Program-made: the position numbers
Shown: piece by piece, positions 21,001-57,000 of the stretch
Layout of the letters: each line of letters begins with the position of its first letter
Position numbering within the stretch: the first letter of the stretch is position 1
Assembly (NCBI GenBank): GCA_030264375.1
Contig: JASCQW010000072.1
Span: 79,646,223 to 79,708,463 of the forward strand
Source: Carcharhinus longimanus
Lineage: Eukaryota
Length of the DNA: 62,241 nucleotides
Direction of reading: 5' to 3'

Positions 21001-24000
21001 AGCTGTGCAAACACATCTGGTTTCAGCTTCAAGAGATATCACATCCAAGCAAAGAAGTGGGAAGAGGTGACAGTAAAAGGTGAGGATGAAATTGATCCAC
21101 AGAATATAGGCCTCCAGAGTTGACCGACTTCAGAATGGGGGAATAACATGGAGGTGAAGATGAAGATTGTACACTTTGAATGAACAGATACCTTGTGCAG
21201 GAAAGGAAGTCTGAGGCTTTTTATGAACTAGAAAATGGAGCTGTTGAATCATGTGGATGGTGAAGTAACATATGTGTTGTGTACTGTGCTGTCACCTTGC
21301 TGGGTATCATTTTTAGATGGGAAGTATTTGATACACAGTTCACATTTGATCTGATGGCTCTTCCAATACCTGGGTTAGGACAAAAAAAAAGGTTATTTTA
21401 TAACGAAAGCATACTACTGTGCATACTGAAAATCCAAACTAAAACAGACAATGCTAGAAATGCTCAGCAGCATCAGTGGAGAGAGAAACAGAGTAATCAT
21501 TTCTGGTGATCTTTCACCAGAACTGGAAAAAATTAGCGATTTAATGGGTTTTAAGATTGTACAGAAGCAGTGAAGGAGGGGAGGAAATGTCTGTGACAGG
21601 TTGAAGGCAGGAGGGATTAAATAACGTGAGGGATGACACTGCAAGGCAAACAAGAAAATGAATAGATAATTTTTCTGCTTTTTCCATTTACATTTATCTA
21701 GACTATTTTTTTCTTAAAGCCATTACCATCTCCATGCTGCAGCCACTGAGAGGGCAGCACTGTGTAGCAGCACCAGGCACATGCAAGACAGGTACAAAGG
21801 GAATTAATGTACTAGATTGATTAGTTGATGTCTGCATGCAATGTGGCAATGCTTAATGTATAAATTTAGTTTGGAATGTTTTCTTAATTTTTATTTTAGC
21901 ATTGTGGGCAACTGGACACAGATGACCAATGATAGAGGGATGGTAGGATGTGAGACTGTTGGTGAATGGGGATCGAATTGGGATTGCATTTCCTGGTATT
22001 GCAGTCAGAGAAACCATCCATCGACAGCCCAGCCAGAAAGGGGGCTGAGTTAGGGACCTCCTCACTTCCTCTTCTTCCTGCTCTTCATATTTGGTGGGAA
22101 AGGCAGTGCCCTCATCATGGCTCTGTGGAAGGAAACCTGAGTTCTTCTGACACAGTGGAAGCGTTGTTTCAGTGATATGCCTCATCATGTCTGTGTGGCG
22201 GTATTTTATAGAAACTTTGAAAATGGGAGCAGGAGTAGACCATTCGCCCCTTCGAGCCTGCTCTGCCAATAATTATGATCATGGCNNNNNNNNNNNNNNN
22301 NNNNNNNNNNNNNNNNNNNNNNNNNNNNNNNNNNNNNNNNNNNNNNNNNNNNNNNNNNNNNNNNNNNNNNNNNNNNNNNNNNNNNTTCCAAAGTGGTACA
22401 ACACTCAGAGAAAAGCACTCTCCTCATCTCTGTCCTAAAATGGTGATCCTTAATTTTACAACAGTACACACTAGTTCTGGACTCACCCACAAGCAGAAAC
22501 ATCCTTTCTGCATCCACCTTGTCAACACCATTTTGAATCTTATATCAAGCTCTTCTAAACTCCAGTGGAAACAAGCCCAGCTTGACCAACCTATCCCCAT
22601 CATACAAGCTGCTCATTCGAGATAGCAATCTAATAAACTTCCTTGGGGGGGAATTTGGAGTTGGTGGTGTTCCCATGTAGCTGCTGCCCTTGACCATCTA
22701 GCTGATAAAGGTTGTGCATTTGGAAGGTGTTGTTGAAGGAGTCTTGGTGAATTGCTGCAGTGCACCTTGTAGATGGTACACACTGCTGTCGATGGTAGAG
22801 GAAGTAAATGTTTAAGGTGGTAGGTTGGGTGCCAATCAAGCGGGCTGCTTTGTCCTGTACGGTGTCAAGCTTCTTGAGTGTTTTTGGGGCTGCACCCATC
22901 TATACAAGTGGAGAGTATTTCATCACACTCATGACTTGTGCTTTGTGGATGGTGGACAGGTTTTGGGGAGTGATGTTTGTGTGCATCAATACTCACTCGG
23001 TAGCCCATGATCCCTCCCTCGCTGGAGGTTTAGTGCTGCCAGGTCCAATGCTAAAGATTTGTTAGGCTGAAACAACTTTTCCGTTAGCTCTTCTGGCATC
23101 ATCTGTGTTTGTGTTTGCAGCTTGGCAGGGTTCAGTATAATTCCTCGGACAAGAGGGTCAATTCCTCCTGCAATACAACACAATGCTATGGGTTAGAGTG
23201 TGGAATAACATGCCTGATACTGAAAGAGAGTCTTTTTCGCTTTATAAATGGGCAGAAATCAGGCAGTAACAGGTAGGTCCCCATTTTAAACAATACCAGA
23301 TCCAGACAAGGTTCTATTTTGATCAGGCAGATCTTAGCTGTATTCAGTGTTATAATAGGTTTCAGTACCTTGGGGGTCACCAAAGAAAGGTCCAAAATTT
23401 GAATTGGAAAATGCCAAGCCTGACTGTTGGCATGTTTTCACCTGTGGGCCATCTTTTTTCCAGGCAGAGTGAGGGGTTGATGGCTACCCACCCAGAAGCA
23501 GCATGTAATCAGTTAGGTCAATTAAAAGGTCAATTAAAATCACTCAGCAGAAACTGACATGAATCCTCTTCCTCAGAGACTGAAATAGGGCCATGGGTTG
23601 GCGACCATACTTCAGCGACAGACTTGTGGAGAGGGGTTCAGTGCTCTATTCTGTACAACTCTGGCCATTTTTAATTTAAGATTTTTTTTACCTTCTCTTG
23701 AGAAGGTGTCTCCATCGTGAGGTGTCCTCCCTTCTTCTTACATGCATGGGGATTACCCAACTTGGCCTTAATCAGGAAGCAGAGTTATGGGTAACATGTT
23801 GGCACAATGGTTAGCACTGCTGCCTCACAGAGCCAGGGACCCAGGTTCAATTCTAGCTTCGGGTGACTGCCTTTATGGAGTATGCATGTTCTCCCCATGT
23901 CTGCATGGGTTTCCTCTGGTTGCTTTGGTTTCCTCCAAAGATGTGTGGGTTAGGTGAGTTGGCCATGCTGAAATACCTTTTAGTGTCAGGGGAGCAAGCA

Positions 24001-54000: not shown

Positions 54001-57000
54001 ACTATTTTTGGGGTGGCAGGGATAAGCCTGAGTCAGGGCTTATCCTGCATTCAGAAGCAGGCCCAAGATAGGAACAGAGGTGGGTGGCTGCTGAGCCTGG
54101 CATGTTAGAAGGCTCACCTCCATTTACTGGGACATTAGCCCAGTTCTGTACATGAGTGTTAGGAACCATGGTCTTCATGCCTCACCAGTCTCCTCACCTA
54201 TCCTCAACCCTCTTCATATTCCCCATGTTTTGTCATATATCTCTATGCCCCCTCCATAACCCCATGCCCCATCCATAACCCCATGCCCCTTCCATATGCT
54301 ATTTGCCTCCTTGTATATCCCCATTTTCTCTCACCCAATATCTACAATGGACAGAACTAATGGGCCCTAGCATGCAATTGGAAGATCTTTGAGTTGTTCA
54401 TACAACTGTTGAAATAAACAAACAACCATTGTCAAAATGTTTATCCTCTTCAGAGCTCATAATTCTGTGAATCAAACATACAGCCAATCTAACAGCACTT
54501 AAAAATACATAATTCTCTTAAGTGCACACAAAATTACCAAACTAAAATGAACAACTATTCAAAAGCTTCTTCAAAAATATTATCATAACATTTCATAAAA
54601 TAATCAACTGTTCATAAAATAAACAAAGCTCACAGACCGCATGACTGCTGTCTTAGTAACTTCGGTTATGCTGAATCCATTGTTGGGGTTTAGAGCACAT
54701 CAGACATATTCATAATAGGAATTCATTGCATAATGGTGTCAACAGAGCCTCCTGAGCTGTATATATTAAACCTGTGAAGTTATGGAACAGATGACCATCT
54801 ATTGCACTACTGAAAGGCTCATAAGAAGGCTGGGATGTCAATAAAATAAGGCAGCCACCTGTTCATCCATTTTGAAGACTCAGCAGATCGTTGGGGTGTC
54901 AATCAAAGGAGTCAGCCATTTTTCAGCTCTTTCAAATGCTCAACACATGGCTGGATTTATAATCAAGGAAAAGATTAAATCACAGGGGAAACTGACACAT
55001 TAAAATCTGAATCTTAATGCTTCTCAATGTAGGAGAGTAGCTTATTGACAGGATAAAGTGAGGTGCTCCTAGTGGATATGAGCATTTTCATAATGCTGGC
55101 AAATGTAATGGTCATTTATCTCTTTTAAACAAAGCTCTATGATTAATCATGGTATTTAAACACATTTAACTTAATATGCACTTTTATCTTATGCACCATT
55201 ACATTTAAAATTTTTGCAATCCACTTACTCATTTTGAAGAAACCATAGGCTGATAATCAGGCTTAGAATCTTTGTAAACATTCAGTTAGGATCAGTGGGG
55301 GTACTTGAGATGCATTCAAGTGTGAAGGGAAATGAAAATAGGTTCAGCTGATTGGAAGATCAGTAGACATCCCTTGAGCTGTCAATGGAGGTCTTTTTCA
55401 AAGCACTACACATTTAAATTGCTGGAGATCAAAGGTTGTGGCATGGAGAGGGTTTCAAAGGTGTCAGCTTGCCAGGAAGCCTCAGAAACTTCAAATCAAA
55501 GCTGTGTTAATACATATGAAAAAACAAGCAGTCAATATGACAGTGGCAATGTCATTTCACTGAATACATTGGGACTGATCGCATAGCTGTGAAGAATGGA
55601 ACCCCCTCCAGTGAAATTTCCTCTCTGTCAAAGGGGTCTGCTCATAACTGCAGCTTCTGACAGGGAGAAAGGGTAACAGTACATACCTTTGTCATATTCT
55701 TCTCCTCACTTGAAAAGTGGCTGATTGTCCATCTTCTAACCTGGTGCTTATTATTTGCTCCCATTATAGGCTCTGGATAAATCTCACATCTTTACTATCA
55801 ATGGCACATTTCAGCAGCCTGTCCATTGACTAATGTCAACTGGATAGTTTTTGAAAAAAAATGTCATGATAGGGAACCTACCGTCTCTCCCAGGCCCGGC
55901 CTACATGTATCCCCAATCCTACACCACATGCTTGACTTTTAATGGTCTCTGATGTGGCCAGTTGTAAACAGTTAATAGCAAATATAGTGTTACAAAAGAA
56001 TCAAATGGACCTAATACTTAATAAAGACTATCAGTTATCATCAAAATTAACTGATAAATCAGTAACTTTTTCATGAGAAGCATCATGAAGAAAGTAAGGA
56101 GACAGTACTCTGACTGAGTGACTTCAGTGTTTCCCACTAAGAATGGTTCAGTTATACACCAATCACAGAATTAGATAGTTCCTGAAGGACATGAGTGTCA
56201 GCTTGATCCTGGGTCAGGTGGTGAGGTAACCAATATAAGGCAGGAACCTCATAGAAACTCTACAGTGCAGAAGGAGGCCGTTCGGCCCATCGAGTCTCCA
56301 CCAACAACAATCCCATCCAGCCTATCCCCGTAATTCCACATATTTACCGCACCCAATCCCTCTAAACTATGCATCCTGGGACACTAAGGGGCAATTTTGC
56401 TTGGCCAGTTCACCTAACCTACACATCTTTGGACTGTGGGAGGAAACCGGAGCACCCGGAGGTAACCCACGCAGACACAGGGAGAATGTGCAAATGCCAC
56501 ACGGAAAGTGACCCAAGCCAGGAATCGAAGCCAGGTCCCTGGAGCTGTGAGGCAGCAGTGCTAACCACTGTGCCACCGTGCCGCCCACAATTTGATTAGA
56601 ACCTATTTGATCTTTGACCTCACTAACCTGTTGCAGTCAGGTCTGGCCATGGTAGCATTTGTAACAACCTCAGATTTCTTGTGGCAACCAAGGATTGTAA
56701 TGGCTCCCATTGGATGGGAAATACCTGGTAATAAATTAATCACCCATGTTTCTTTCAACTGACGGTTGACACTGACCAGCAGGAACAGTGATTTTCTGAT
56801 TGGTGAGAGAATTCTCTTTTCTATAATGTGTCAGTCCACTATGTGAAGACAGATCAAGCTATTTAAATCTGGGCTTCTATCACACATCAACAGCAGTTTA
56901 TACCACTACAATCAGTAACTTCATTGCCCAGCCCATCACTCTCTCCTCATTCACCACTAAACAAGGAAACTGACCCTGTTTCAATGGAGATTACTTAAGA

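What the first reader, a model, noticed from the sequence alone, without database searches (positions are those of the whole stretch)
22997..55695. TPO/MPO-mosaic heme peroxidase gene tail-to-tail with RAB3IL1, outside the human TPO and MPO loci
Seen: 11 phase-compatible exons give 597 uninterrupted codons, and RAB3IL1 is the convergent neighbour. Known (recalled human genes): TPO lies by SNTG2/PXDN, MPO/LPO/EPX cluster near MKS1, and RAB3IL1 lies by the FADS cluster and BEST1 with no peroxidase. TPO-like motifs here: RAAExMETSI, CxxxCLxNKYRxIT, TPQ...NPCFPIQ, TAAFRFGHxTIHP, PAKLQxQxQxMx[14 protein letters not shown], and a 259-nt exon. MPO-like features: FKxPVAxTRxAVRAA and the intron at CFLAG|D that splits the single 519-nt human TPO exon 8 into 355+161. 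Inference: a separate jawed-vertebrate peroxidase paralogue, not present at this locus in humans, that automated pipelines may label TPO-like or EPX-like. It may be the orthologue of a teleost gene already named epx; I cannot check this.
[Added by the scan's program, not by the reader: the finding's places include an assembly gap (unread letters, written N; its length is only estimated) at 25690 to 25789, 31327 to 31584, 39046 to 39055, 43220 to 43319, 43964 to 43973, 48827 to 49217. Whether the letters on both sides are continuous or in frame is not known: test that first.]
Basis: partly seen in the sequence, partly recalled or inferred. Interest (0 to 1): 0.72.

Follow-up and report, generated by a model that had tools for sequence, protein, structure and literature searches.

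The report
Shark orthologue of fish "epx" peroxidase
This is a real but incompletely assembled shark gene for a membrane-anchored heme peroxidase from a third vertebrate lineage, neither thyroid peroxidase nor myeloperoxidase, which databases already list under inconsistent names.

Summary
On the minus strand, 11 exons (55695 to 22997) with consensus splice sites read without a stop. They give 594 or 597 codons, depending on two acceptors 9 nt apart. The last three coding exons of RAB3IL1 lie convergently at 3516-7008. All assembly gaps inside the finding fall in introns, and no coding sequence is lost there.

The gene does not end at 22997. A twelfth, final exon (21369-21249) lies beyond a 100-N gap (22286-22385). 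About 238 codons that shark orthologues have between those exons are absent from the window: the end of the peroxidase domain, the sushi domain and the membrane helix.

Every exon tested is closest (79-100%) to one annotated protein, "myeloperoxidase-like [Mustelus asterias]". In a tree of 69 named proteins that protein sits in a 100/100 clade. The clade holds sharks, rays, chimaera, coelacanth, squamates, sturgeon, gar and the teleost "eosinophil peroxidase". It is sister to the MPO/EPX/mpx clade and separate from TPO (AU p = 0.0002). Skates carry a true TPO as well.

"Mosaic" means retained ancestral residues, not recombination. The gene family is already annotated, though misnamed and uncharacterised: moderate interest.

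The parts
55687..55695 (-). Peroxidase exon 1: ATG + 2 codons (MTK), donor gtatgt. An in-frame ATG at 55764 is an alternative start.
   Evidence: Sequence read; resembles the '...EMSK' end of the Mustelus and Scyliorhinus N-termini
53517..53601 (-). Exon 2 (85 nt): hydrophobic signal-like segment VLSRGIPQLLLLLIY...
   Evidence: tblastn with P0001, 89% identity; splice sites
43625..43718 (-). Exon 3 (94 nt): propeptide. A second AG 9 nt upstream (start 43727) would add 3 codons.
   Evidence: the Mustelus model matches the downstream acceptor
39628..39803 (-). Exon 4 (176 nt): propeptide, contains FKDPVAETRSAVRAAELMETSIE
37609..37744 (-). Exon 5 (136 nt), contains CSSSCLLNKYRNITSICNN
36497..36626 (-). 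Exon 6 (130 nt): start of the peroxidase domain
35984..36190 (-). Exon 7 (207 nt): distal motif WGQWIDHD. It has a GC donor (CAG|gcaagt) and an 88-nt intron follows.
   Evidence: Pfam 1.8e-12
35541..35895 (-). Exon 8 (355 nt), ends at CFLA-G
   Evidence: Pfam 2.4e-25; PDB best match MPO 8.6e-31; 95% identity to P0001
31863..32023 (-). Exon 9 (161 nt): DSRANEH, holding the catalytic Arg, the ester-bond Glu, and His where MPO has Met
   Evidence: Pfam 1e-24
24785..25043 (-). Exon 10 (259 nt): proximal His in TAAFRFGH
   Evidence: Pfam 1.9e-22
22997..23167 (-). Exon 11 (171 nt): [12 protein letters not shown]. This is the last exon inside the finding's coordinates.
   Evidence: Pfam 4.2e-16; 100% identity to P0001
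22286..22385 (.). 100-N assembly gap, the only place where the roughly 238 missing codons could lie (end of the peroxidase domain, sushi domain, membrane helix)
21249..21369 (-). Final exon (121 nt with stop): cytoplasmic tail (R)YWKSHQ...SPST*. It lies outside the finding's coordinates.
   Evidence: tblastn with P0001 residues 858-901; acceptor and stop
3516..7008 (+). RAB3IL1, last three coding exons (matches at 3516-3602, 6138-6209, 6928-7008). Their splice sites were not refined.

Best explanation
The locus is the shark copy of an ancient jawed-vertebrate heme peroxidase gene, called clade A here. The clade is a third lineage beside TPO and the MPO/EPX/LPO/mpx lineage, and sister to the latter. 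It survives in cartilaginous fishes, coelacanth, squamates, sturgeons, gar and teleosts, where it carries the name 'eosinophil peroxidase / epx'. It did not appear among mammals, birds or amphibians in the tier of hits where orthologues score.

Shown from sequence: the product has a signal-like segment, a propeptide and an animal heme peroxidase domain. That domain keeps every residue checked: the distal Gln-x-x-Asp-His-Asp, the catalytic Arg, the ester-bond Glu, and the proximal His with its Asn.

Inferred from those residues: the heme is bound by two ester bonds and lacks the MPO sulfonium link, because an invariant His replaces the MPO Met. The enzyme would use H2O2 to oxidise halides, thiocyanate or small organic donors.

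Inferred from orthologues: one sushi domain, a transmembrane helix and a short cytoplasmic tail follow, giving a TPO-like type I membrane topology with the catalytic domain outside the cell or in a lumen. Of that region the window holds only the tail exon. The rest lies in an unsized assembly gap, so the gene looks truncated because of the assembly rather than the biology.

Tissue, substrate and physiological role are unknown.
For: - Exon structure and open frames.
- Pfam hits on five exon ORFs.
- 11 of 11 exons tested are closest to P0001 (Mustelus asterias), at 79-100% identity. The order shark clade A > sarcopterygian clade A > all other groups holds in every exon.
- Careful ML tree of 69 named proteins: clade A 100/100 (23 rows, including 9 teleost/gar 'epx' and 2 sturgeon/paddlefish); TPO 100/100; MPO clade 100/100 (36 rows); clade A + MPO clade 100/99.
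- AU test rejects clade A + TPO: delta lnL 42.8, p 0.0002.
- Skate TPOs (Amblyraja, Leucoraja) fall in the TPO clade, SH-aLRT 100, and lie on contigs other than that of the Leucoraja clade A gene.
- Catalytic residues are conserved, and His follows the ester Glu in 23 of 23 clade A rows plus the window. The same position is M in 4 of 8 tetrapod MPO/EPX rows and V in 5 of 8 TPO rows.
- The motif meanings come from passages of PMC4420034 and PMC9138014.
- Orthologue architecture: An_peroxidase + Sushi, with EGF_CA added in lizards and teleosts. A strongly hydrophobic 19-mer (Kyte-Doolittle 3.57) lies just before the residues that the window's last exon encodes.
The same holds for only 1 of 12 species for the other shark/ray peroxidases, Cetorhinus.
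Against: - About 238 codons, including part of the peroxidase domain, are not in the window, so intactness of the gene in this animal is not shown.
- The full-length tree places a stand-in (P0001), not the window's own joined protein. The window is tied to it only exon by exon.
- Inside clade A the branching does not follow the species tree: chondrichthyans group with coelacanth and squamates, against ray-finned fishes (99/94). Hidden paralogy or rate effects are possible, and one-to-one orthology with teleost epx is less certain than clade membership.
- Absence from mammals, birds and amphibians rests on their not appearing among the 120 best of 2840 hits, not on genome searches.
- No expression or enzymatic data exist for any member that I could find.
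Confidence: 0.82

Rival explanations
1. It is the shark's thyroid peroxidase, simply moved next to RAB3IL1.
For: The orthologues have a TPO-like build: peroxidase + sushi (+ EGF in lizards and teleosts) + membrane helix. Some pipelines call members 'thyroid peroxidase-like'. Several motifs match TPO.
Against: TPO forms its own 100/100 clade that excludes clade A. The AU test rejects joining them, p 0.0002. Two skates have a separately annotated TPO inside the TPO clade, on a different contig from the clade A gene. The shared motifs also occur in peroxidasin, Ciona and shark MPO-like proteins, so they are ancestral. Exons 4, 8 and 9 are less similar to TPO than to the MPO clade.
Confidence: 0.03
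2. It is a true orthologue of mammalian EPX or MPO, as the database names suggest.
For: The names given by NCBI and UniRef. The best solved-structure match for exon 8 is MPO, then EPX. Clade A is sister to the MPO clade.
Against: The MPO clade (36 rows, 100/100) already holds its own shark, ray-finned fish, coelacanth, lungfish and tetrapod members, so the split from clade A predates jawed-vertebrate radiation. The MPO/EPX split lies inside amniotes in the tree. The Met of the MPO sulfonium link is His here. Orthologues are membrane-anchored with a sushi domain.
Confidence: 0.05
3. The gene is broken in this animal: a truncated copy or pseudogene lacking the end of the peroxidase domain, the sushi domain and the membrane helix.
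For: Residues 621-858 of the orthologue have no match anywhere in the window. Only 1.6 kb separates exon 11 from the last exon.
Against: An unsized 100-N assembly gap lies exactly there. The 12 exons present are open, in phase and have consensus splice sites. They are 79-100% identical to the Mustelus protein, with all catalytic residues kept. The last exon is in the right order and on the right strand.
Confidence: 0.08
4. The adjacency to RAB3IL1 is a scaffolding artefact.
For: Four N gaps lie between the two stop codons, and one more lies inside the peroxidase gene's 3' part.
Against: In 5 of 5 other cartilaginous fishes where both proteins were listed, they come from a record of identical length. 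This holds for only 1 of 12 species for the other peroxidase paralogues.
Confidence: 0.1

Closest known systems
'myeloperoxidase-like [Mustelus asterias]' (P0001, 901 aa) and the shark/ray/chimaera proteins named 'eosinophil peroxidase-like'
   Same: 79-100% identity in each of the 11 exons tested. Same order of parts, same catalytic residues, same C-terminal tail. RAB3IL1 lies on the same contig.
   Different: It comes from another species. The window lacks 238 codons (assembly gap). The exon 1 donor differs from the Mustelus model.
Teleost, gar and sturgeon 'eosinophil peroxidase (epx)', about 880-1008 aa
   Same: Same 100/100 clade. Peroxidase + sushi + membrane helix. Invariant His after the ester Glu.
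   Different: 45-73% identity per exon. The fish proteins add an EGF_CA domain that Pfam does not find in the shark proteins. Branching inside the clade does not follow the species tree. Papers use the name as an eosinophil marker without testing orthology (passages read).
Thyroid peroxidase (TPO)
   Same: Animal heme peroxidase with two ester-bond residues. Sushi domain and single-pass membrane anchor in the orthologues. Many shared ancestral motifs.
   Different: Separate clade. 13-62% identity per exon. Val rather than His after the ester Glu in most rows. Skates have both genes.
MPO / EPX / LPO and fish mpx lineage
   Same: Sister clade. Exon 8's best solved-structure match is MPO, 8.6e-31. 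Same catalytic residues.
   Different: No Met for a sulfonium link. Membrane-anchored rather than a soluble granule or secreted enzyme (inferred from orthologues). The split predates the shark/bony-vertebrate divergence.

Membership tests
Animal heme peroxidase (Pfam PF03098; Family 1 'Chordata peroxidases' of the peroxidase-cyclooxygenase superfamily) | Domain match above the curated cut-off | tested here: met
   Five exon ORFs score 47-89.5 bits against a cut-off of 25, covering profile positions 49-408 of 530
Animal heme peroxidase (PF03098) | Distal motif X-G-Q-X-X-D-H-D-X (motif as given in PMC4420034, passage read) | tested here: met
   WGQWIDHD in exon 7. Q, D, H and D align with all reference clades.
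Animal heme peroxidase (PF03098) | Catalytic Arg and ester-bond Glu, X-R-X-X-E-X; proximal His with its Asn partner | tested here: met
   SRANEH in exon 9, FRFGH in exon 10, LNLQR in exon 11
Animal heme peroxidase (PF03098) | Complete domain (profile positions 409-530) | tested here: inconclusive
   Not in the window. An unsized gap at 22286-22385 lies where it should be.
TPO orthologue group | Groups with vertebrate TPOs in a tree | tested here: not met
   The stand-in P0001 lies outside the 100/100 TPO clade. AU p 0.0002 against joining them. Skate TPOs group with TPO.
TPO orthologue group | Linked to PXDN/SNTG2 (recalled for human) | not testable with these tools
   No eukaryotic genome collection was at hand. 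The window shows RAB3IL1 instead.
MPO/EPX/LPO/mpx lineage | Groups inside the clade holding tetrapod MPO and EPX | tested here: not met
   It is sister to that 36-row clade, not inside it
MPO proper | Met next to the ester Glu for the sulfonium heme link. The link is stated in PMC9138014; the residue position is recalled. | tested here: not met
   His in the window and in 23 of 23 clade A rows. Met in the rat, whale and bird MPO rows shown (4 of 8 tetrapod MPO/EPX rows).
Clade A (shark 'EPX/MPO-like', coelacanth 'EPX', squamate 'TPO-like', teleost 'epx') | Closest relatives are clade members, exon by exon | tested here: met
   In 11 of 11 exons the top match is P0001, and the three best matches are all clade A sharks or rays
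Clade A | Sushi domain and transmembrane helix after the peroxidase domain | tested here: inconclusive
   Present in orthologues. The window holds only the tail exon that follows the helix.
RAB3IL1 (the neighbour) | Rabin8-like C-terminal domain, and best hits named RAB3IL1 rather than RAB3IP | tested here: met
   PF25555 at 3.9e-11. None of the 120 listed hits is named RAB3IP. 96-100% identity to Mustelus RAB3IL1 over the last three exons.

The most novel reading that the evidence does not exclude
Jawed vertebrates ancestrally had three peroxidase genes of this type, not two. The third is a membrane-anchored enzyme built like TPO, with an invariant His beside the heme-linking Glu. It persists from sharks to lizards and teleosts and was lost in mammals, birds and amphibians. 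The fish gene called 'epx' is this enzyme, not an eosinophil peroxidase orthologue, so its use as an eosinophil marker and its presumed function both need re-examination. Its real role, for example a cell-surface or luminal oxidant generator paired with an NADPH oxidase, is still open.
Probability: 0.55. Interest if true: 0.55.

Novelty: new member of a known kind. Interest (0 to 1): 0.4.

Why it matters
It sorts out a naming problem. One orthologous gene appears in public annotation as MPO-like, EPX-like, EPX and TPO-like, and fish studies take 'epx' as an eosinophil marker by name alone.

The gene belongs to an old third lineage with TPO-like membrane topology. That suggests the ancestral enzyme was membrane-bound and that soluble MPO/EPX/LPO are the derived form. 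It also points to an uncharacterised peroxidase that mammals lack.

For the window itself, the practical message is that the gene model is cut by an assembly gap and should not be read as a short peroxidase.

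Tried and rejected
- **Mosaic or recombinant origin:** rejected. Per-exon identities keep the same clade order in all 11 exons.
- **Other genes in the window:** ORFs in 55.8-62.2 kb and 7-21 kb showed only SINE/LINE-like ORFs. Rfam at gathering threshold found 0 matches and tRNA scans found 0 genes in the whole window.
- **The missing 238 codons elsewhere in the window:** tblastn with word size 2 and E up to 20 gave only noise.
- **A longer exon 1 like the Mustelus model:** a low-stringency tblastn gave nothing convincing. Reading the DNA gave the short exon 1.
- **Literature:**
  - 'epx' + eosinophil peroxidase + zebrafish + mpx: 0 papers.
  - rab3il1 + epx: 0 papers.
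  - thyroid peroxidase/myeloperoxidase/paralog/synteny/shark/lamprey: 1 paper, listing only, not relevant.
  - Loughran 2008 (PMC2315650; outline and passages) covers mammals and chicken only.
  - Zamocky 2015 (PMC4420034; passages) mentions only 'minor subfamilies of fish peroxidases'.
  - I found no description of this clade. Subscription journals and supplements were not searchable.
- **Unnamed representatives:** one search returned unnamed representatives. Two that proved to be unnamed read-archive records (P0139, P0151) were dropped.
- **Not done:**
  - No structure or complex prediction was run, because the fold is not in question.
  - No human sequence was used.
  - The only contig collection open (genome contigs) holds only bacteria and archaea and was not scanned.

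Full report
**What the window is.** I take the window for shark DNA, not human. It is full of ORF-bearing SINE/LINE fragments typical of sharks, and its genes match shark proteins best. It has 15 runs of N. No N stretch was filled or looked up. The spliced model was searched exon by exon. I built, searched and folded no joined protein, and the full-length tree uses a database orthologue as a stand-in.

**The observation.** On the minus strand, five stop-free stretches hit Pfam An_peroxidase (E 1.8e-12 to 2.4e-25). A tblastn with the best database relative (P0001, see below), together with reading the splice sites, gave these exons:

| Exon | Coordinates | Length (nt) | Note |
|---|---|---|---|
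| 1 | 55695-55687 | 9 | ATG + 2 codons |
| 2 | 53601-53517 | 85 | |
| 3 | 43718-43625 | 94 | alternative acceptor 9 nt upstream |
| 4 | 39803-39628 | 176 | |
| 5 | 37744-37609 | 136 | |
| 6 | 36626-36497 | 130 | |
| 7 | 36190-35984 | 207 | GC donor |
| 8 | 35895-35541 | 355 | |
| 9 | 32023-31863 | 161 | |
| 10 | 25043-24785 | 259 | |
| 11 | 23167-22997 | 171 | |

All acceptors are AG. Ten donors are GT and one, on exon 7, is GC in a strong CAG|gcaagt context. Phases fit.

**The gaps.** The six gaps named by the scan's program, and two more inside the span (50541-50640, 53117-53126), all lie in introns. Aligned one by one to three shark orthologues, exons 2-11 cover a continuous run of residues (30-620 of P0001). 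The only breaks are single residues at split codons. So nothing coding is hidden in those gaps.

Pfam coverage ends at profile position 408 of 530, and orthologues are about 900 residues long. A twelfth exon at 21369-21249 encodes the last 40 residues and the stop. Residues 621-858 of P0001 have no counterpart anywhere in the window. In P0001 they hold the end of the peroxidase domain, a sushi domain (786-824) and a very hydrophobic helix (836-854). Only 1.6 kb separates exons 11 and 12, and it contains the 100-N gap 22286-22385. The simplest reading is an unsized assembly gap that swallowed several exons. A real truncation cannot be excluded from the window alone.

**The neighbour.** An ORF at 3447-3827 (+) hits the Rabin8-like C-terminal domain (PF25555, 3.9e-11). 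In the protein search, 415 of 524 candidates passed E 0.001. Of the 120 listed, none is named RAB3IP, and nearly all named ones are 'guanine nucleotide exchange factor for Rab-3A' or 'RAB3A interacting protein like 1'. The Mustelus RAB3IL1 maps at 96-100% identity to 3516-3602, 6138-6209 and 6928-7008, ending the protein. The two genes therefore converge, with about 14 kb and four N gaps between their stop codons.

**Linkage elsewhere.** As an indirect check on the scaffold, I compared the contig lengths reported for each protein.
- The other shark/ray peroxidases do so in only 1 of 12 species, Cetorhinus.
- This shows the same chromosome-scale record, not adjacency.
- Assignment of those other peroxidases to the MPO clade rests on the tree for some and on score tier and domains for the rest.

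**What the gene is.** Exon 8 found 113 proteins (of 272 candidates).
- The best is 'myeloperoxidase-like [Mustelus asterias]' (P0001, 901 aa, 95% identity).
- Next come shark, ray and coelacanth proteins at 72-82%, named EPX-like, MPO-like or TPO-like.
- Squamate proteins follow at 62-64%.
- All others sit near 50%.

A search with P0001 residues 100-860 scored 8000 candidates, of which 2840 passed 1e-30 and 120 were listed. Its top tier (>990 bits) holds sharks, rays, Callorhinchus, Latimeria, four squamates, sturgeon and paddlefish. After that come teleost and gar 'eosinophil peroxidase' (about 880 aa) and the other shark peroxidases. No mammal, bird or amphibian appears in that tier.

**No mosaic.** Per exon, 11 of 11 tested exons (exon 1 is too short) have P0001 as best match (79-100%). 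All show the same order: shark clade A > coelacanth/squamate > everything else. The 'TPO-like' motifs ([30 protein letters not shown]) also occur in peroxidasin, Ciona TPO and shark MPO-like proteins. They are ancestral states that tetrapod MPO/EPX lost.

**Tree.** I chose 69 named, non-human proteins from those held, to represent each tier, with peroxidasin as outgroup. Unnamed records were left out. TPO, bird, caecilian, frog and peroxidasin rows were named through. The careful IQ-TREE run (quick version) gives:

| Group | Rows | Support (bootstrap/SH-aLRT) |
|---|---|---|
| TPO | 7 | 100/100 |
| Clade A, including 9 teleost/gar 'epx' and sturgeon/paddlefish | 23 | 100/100 |
| MPO clade (tetrapod MPO/EPX, fish mpx-type, shark MPO-like and C1q-fused forms, coelacanth, lungfish) | 36 | 100/100 |
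| Clade A + MPO clade | 59 | 100/99 |

- Holding clade A with TPO costs 42.8 log-likelihood units (AU p 0.0002).
- Two skate proteins annotated 'thyroid peroxidase' join the TPO clade, which then holds 10 rows at SH-aLRT 100.
- In Leucoraja the TPO is on a different contig (100,531,206) from the clade A gene (41,908,833). Cartilaginous fishes therefore have TPO, clade A and MPO-type genes side by side.
- Caveat: inside clade A, chondrichthyans group with coelacanth and squamates against ray-finned fishes (99/94). That is not the species tree, so rate shifts or hidden paralogy may be involved.

**How it probably works.** The exons keep every catalytic residue checked:

| Exon | Motif | Role |
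|---|---|---|
| 7 | G-Q-x-x-D-H-D | Distal His, ester Asp, Ca Asp, halide Gln |
| 9 | R-x-x-E | Catalytic Arg, second ester Glu |
| 10 | FRFGH | Proximal His |
| 11 | LNLQR | Asn partner of the proximal His |

The meanings come from passages of PMC4420034. The residue after the ester Glu is His in the window and in 23 of 23 clade A rows. It is Met in the MPO rows, where it makes the sulfonium link (link stated in PMC9138014; residue position recalled).

I infer a heme bound by two ester bonds, H2O2-driven oxidation of halides, thiocyanate or small donors, and a lower oxidising power than MPO. From the orthologues I infer a type I membrane protein: signal, propeptide, peroxidase, sushi, helix and short tail. 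Lizard and teleost members add an EGF_CA domain. Tissue and substrate are unknown.

**Novelty.** The clade is annotated in many genomes but under four different names. The papers I could search treat fish 'epx' as an eosinophil marker by name (passages). I found no paper that describes the clade or its link to RAB3IL1. Zamocky 2015 only mentions 'minor subfamilies of fish peroxidases'. The claims about the human loci and human exon sizes remain recalled and untested.

Noticed in passing
window 35896-35983 (minus strand): Intron 7 is only 88 nt long and uses a GC-AG splice pair (CAG|gcaagt ... tgtag|). No GT donor nearby keeps the frame.
   Followed up: partly
window 43719-43727 (minus strand): Two in-frame AG acceptors lie 9 nt apart at exon 3. 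The choice adds or drops three residues (G-L-A) just after the signal-like segment. The Mustelus model matches the downstream one.
   Followed up: partly
Related proteins P0034, P0024, P0029, P0041 (sharks) and P0028, P0035, P0046 (ray-finned fishes): Many MPO-clade peroxidases of sharks and ray-finned fishes carry a C-terminal C1q domain, some with collagen repeats. In P0034 the order is peroxidase 71-628, sushi 675-709, C1q 760-874. This is an unusual peroxidase-C1q fusion.
   Followed up: partly
Both paralogue groups may share a chromosome there.
   Followed up: no
window 16310-16950 and 17800-18570: Long G/C-rich, low-complexity stretches give Gly/Pro-rich ORFs on both strands, next to the gaps at 16712-16760 and 18109-18208, in the intergenic region.
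   Followed up: no
Whole window, for example 15308-15586, 31057-31269, 52841-53029, 56370-56636: There are many copies, in both orientations, of a SINE-like repeat whose ORF reads ...VAQWLALLPHS.RD.GSIPG.GH.LCGVC.FS... LINE-like fragments (...[12 protein letters not shown]...) also occur. Several abut assembly gaps.
   Followed up: no
P0114 (named): The best-scoring 50%-cluster representative for the shark protein is a 1647-aa hemichordate protein (Glandiceps talaboti) with two peroxidase stretches.
   Followed up: no
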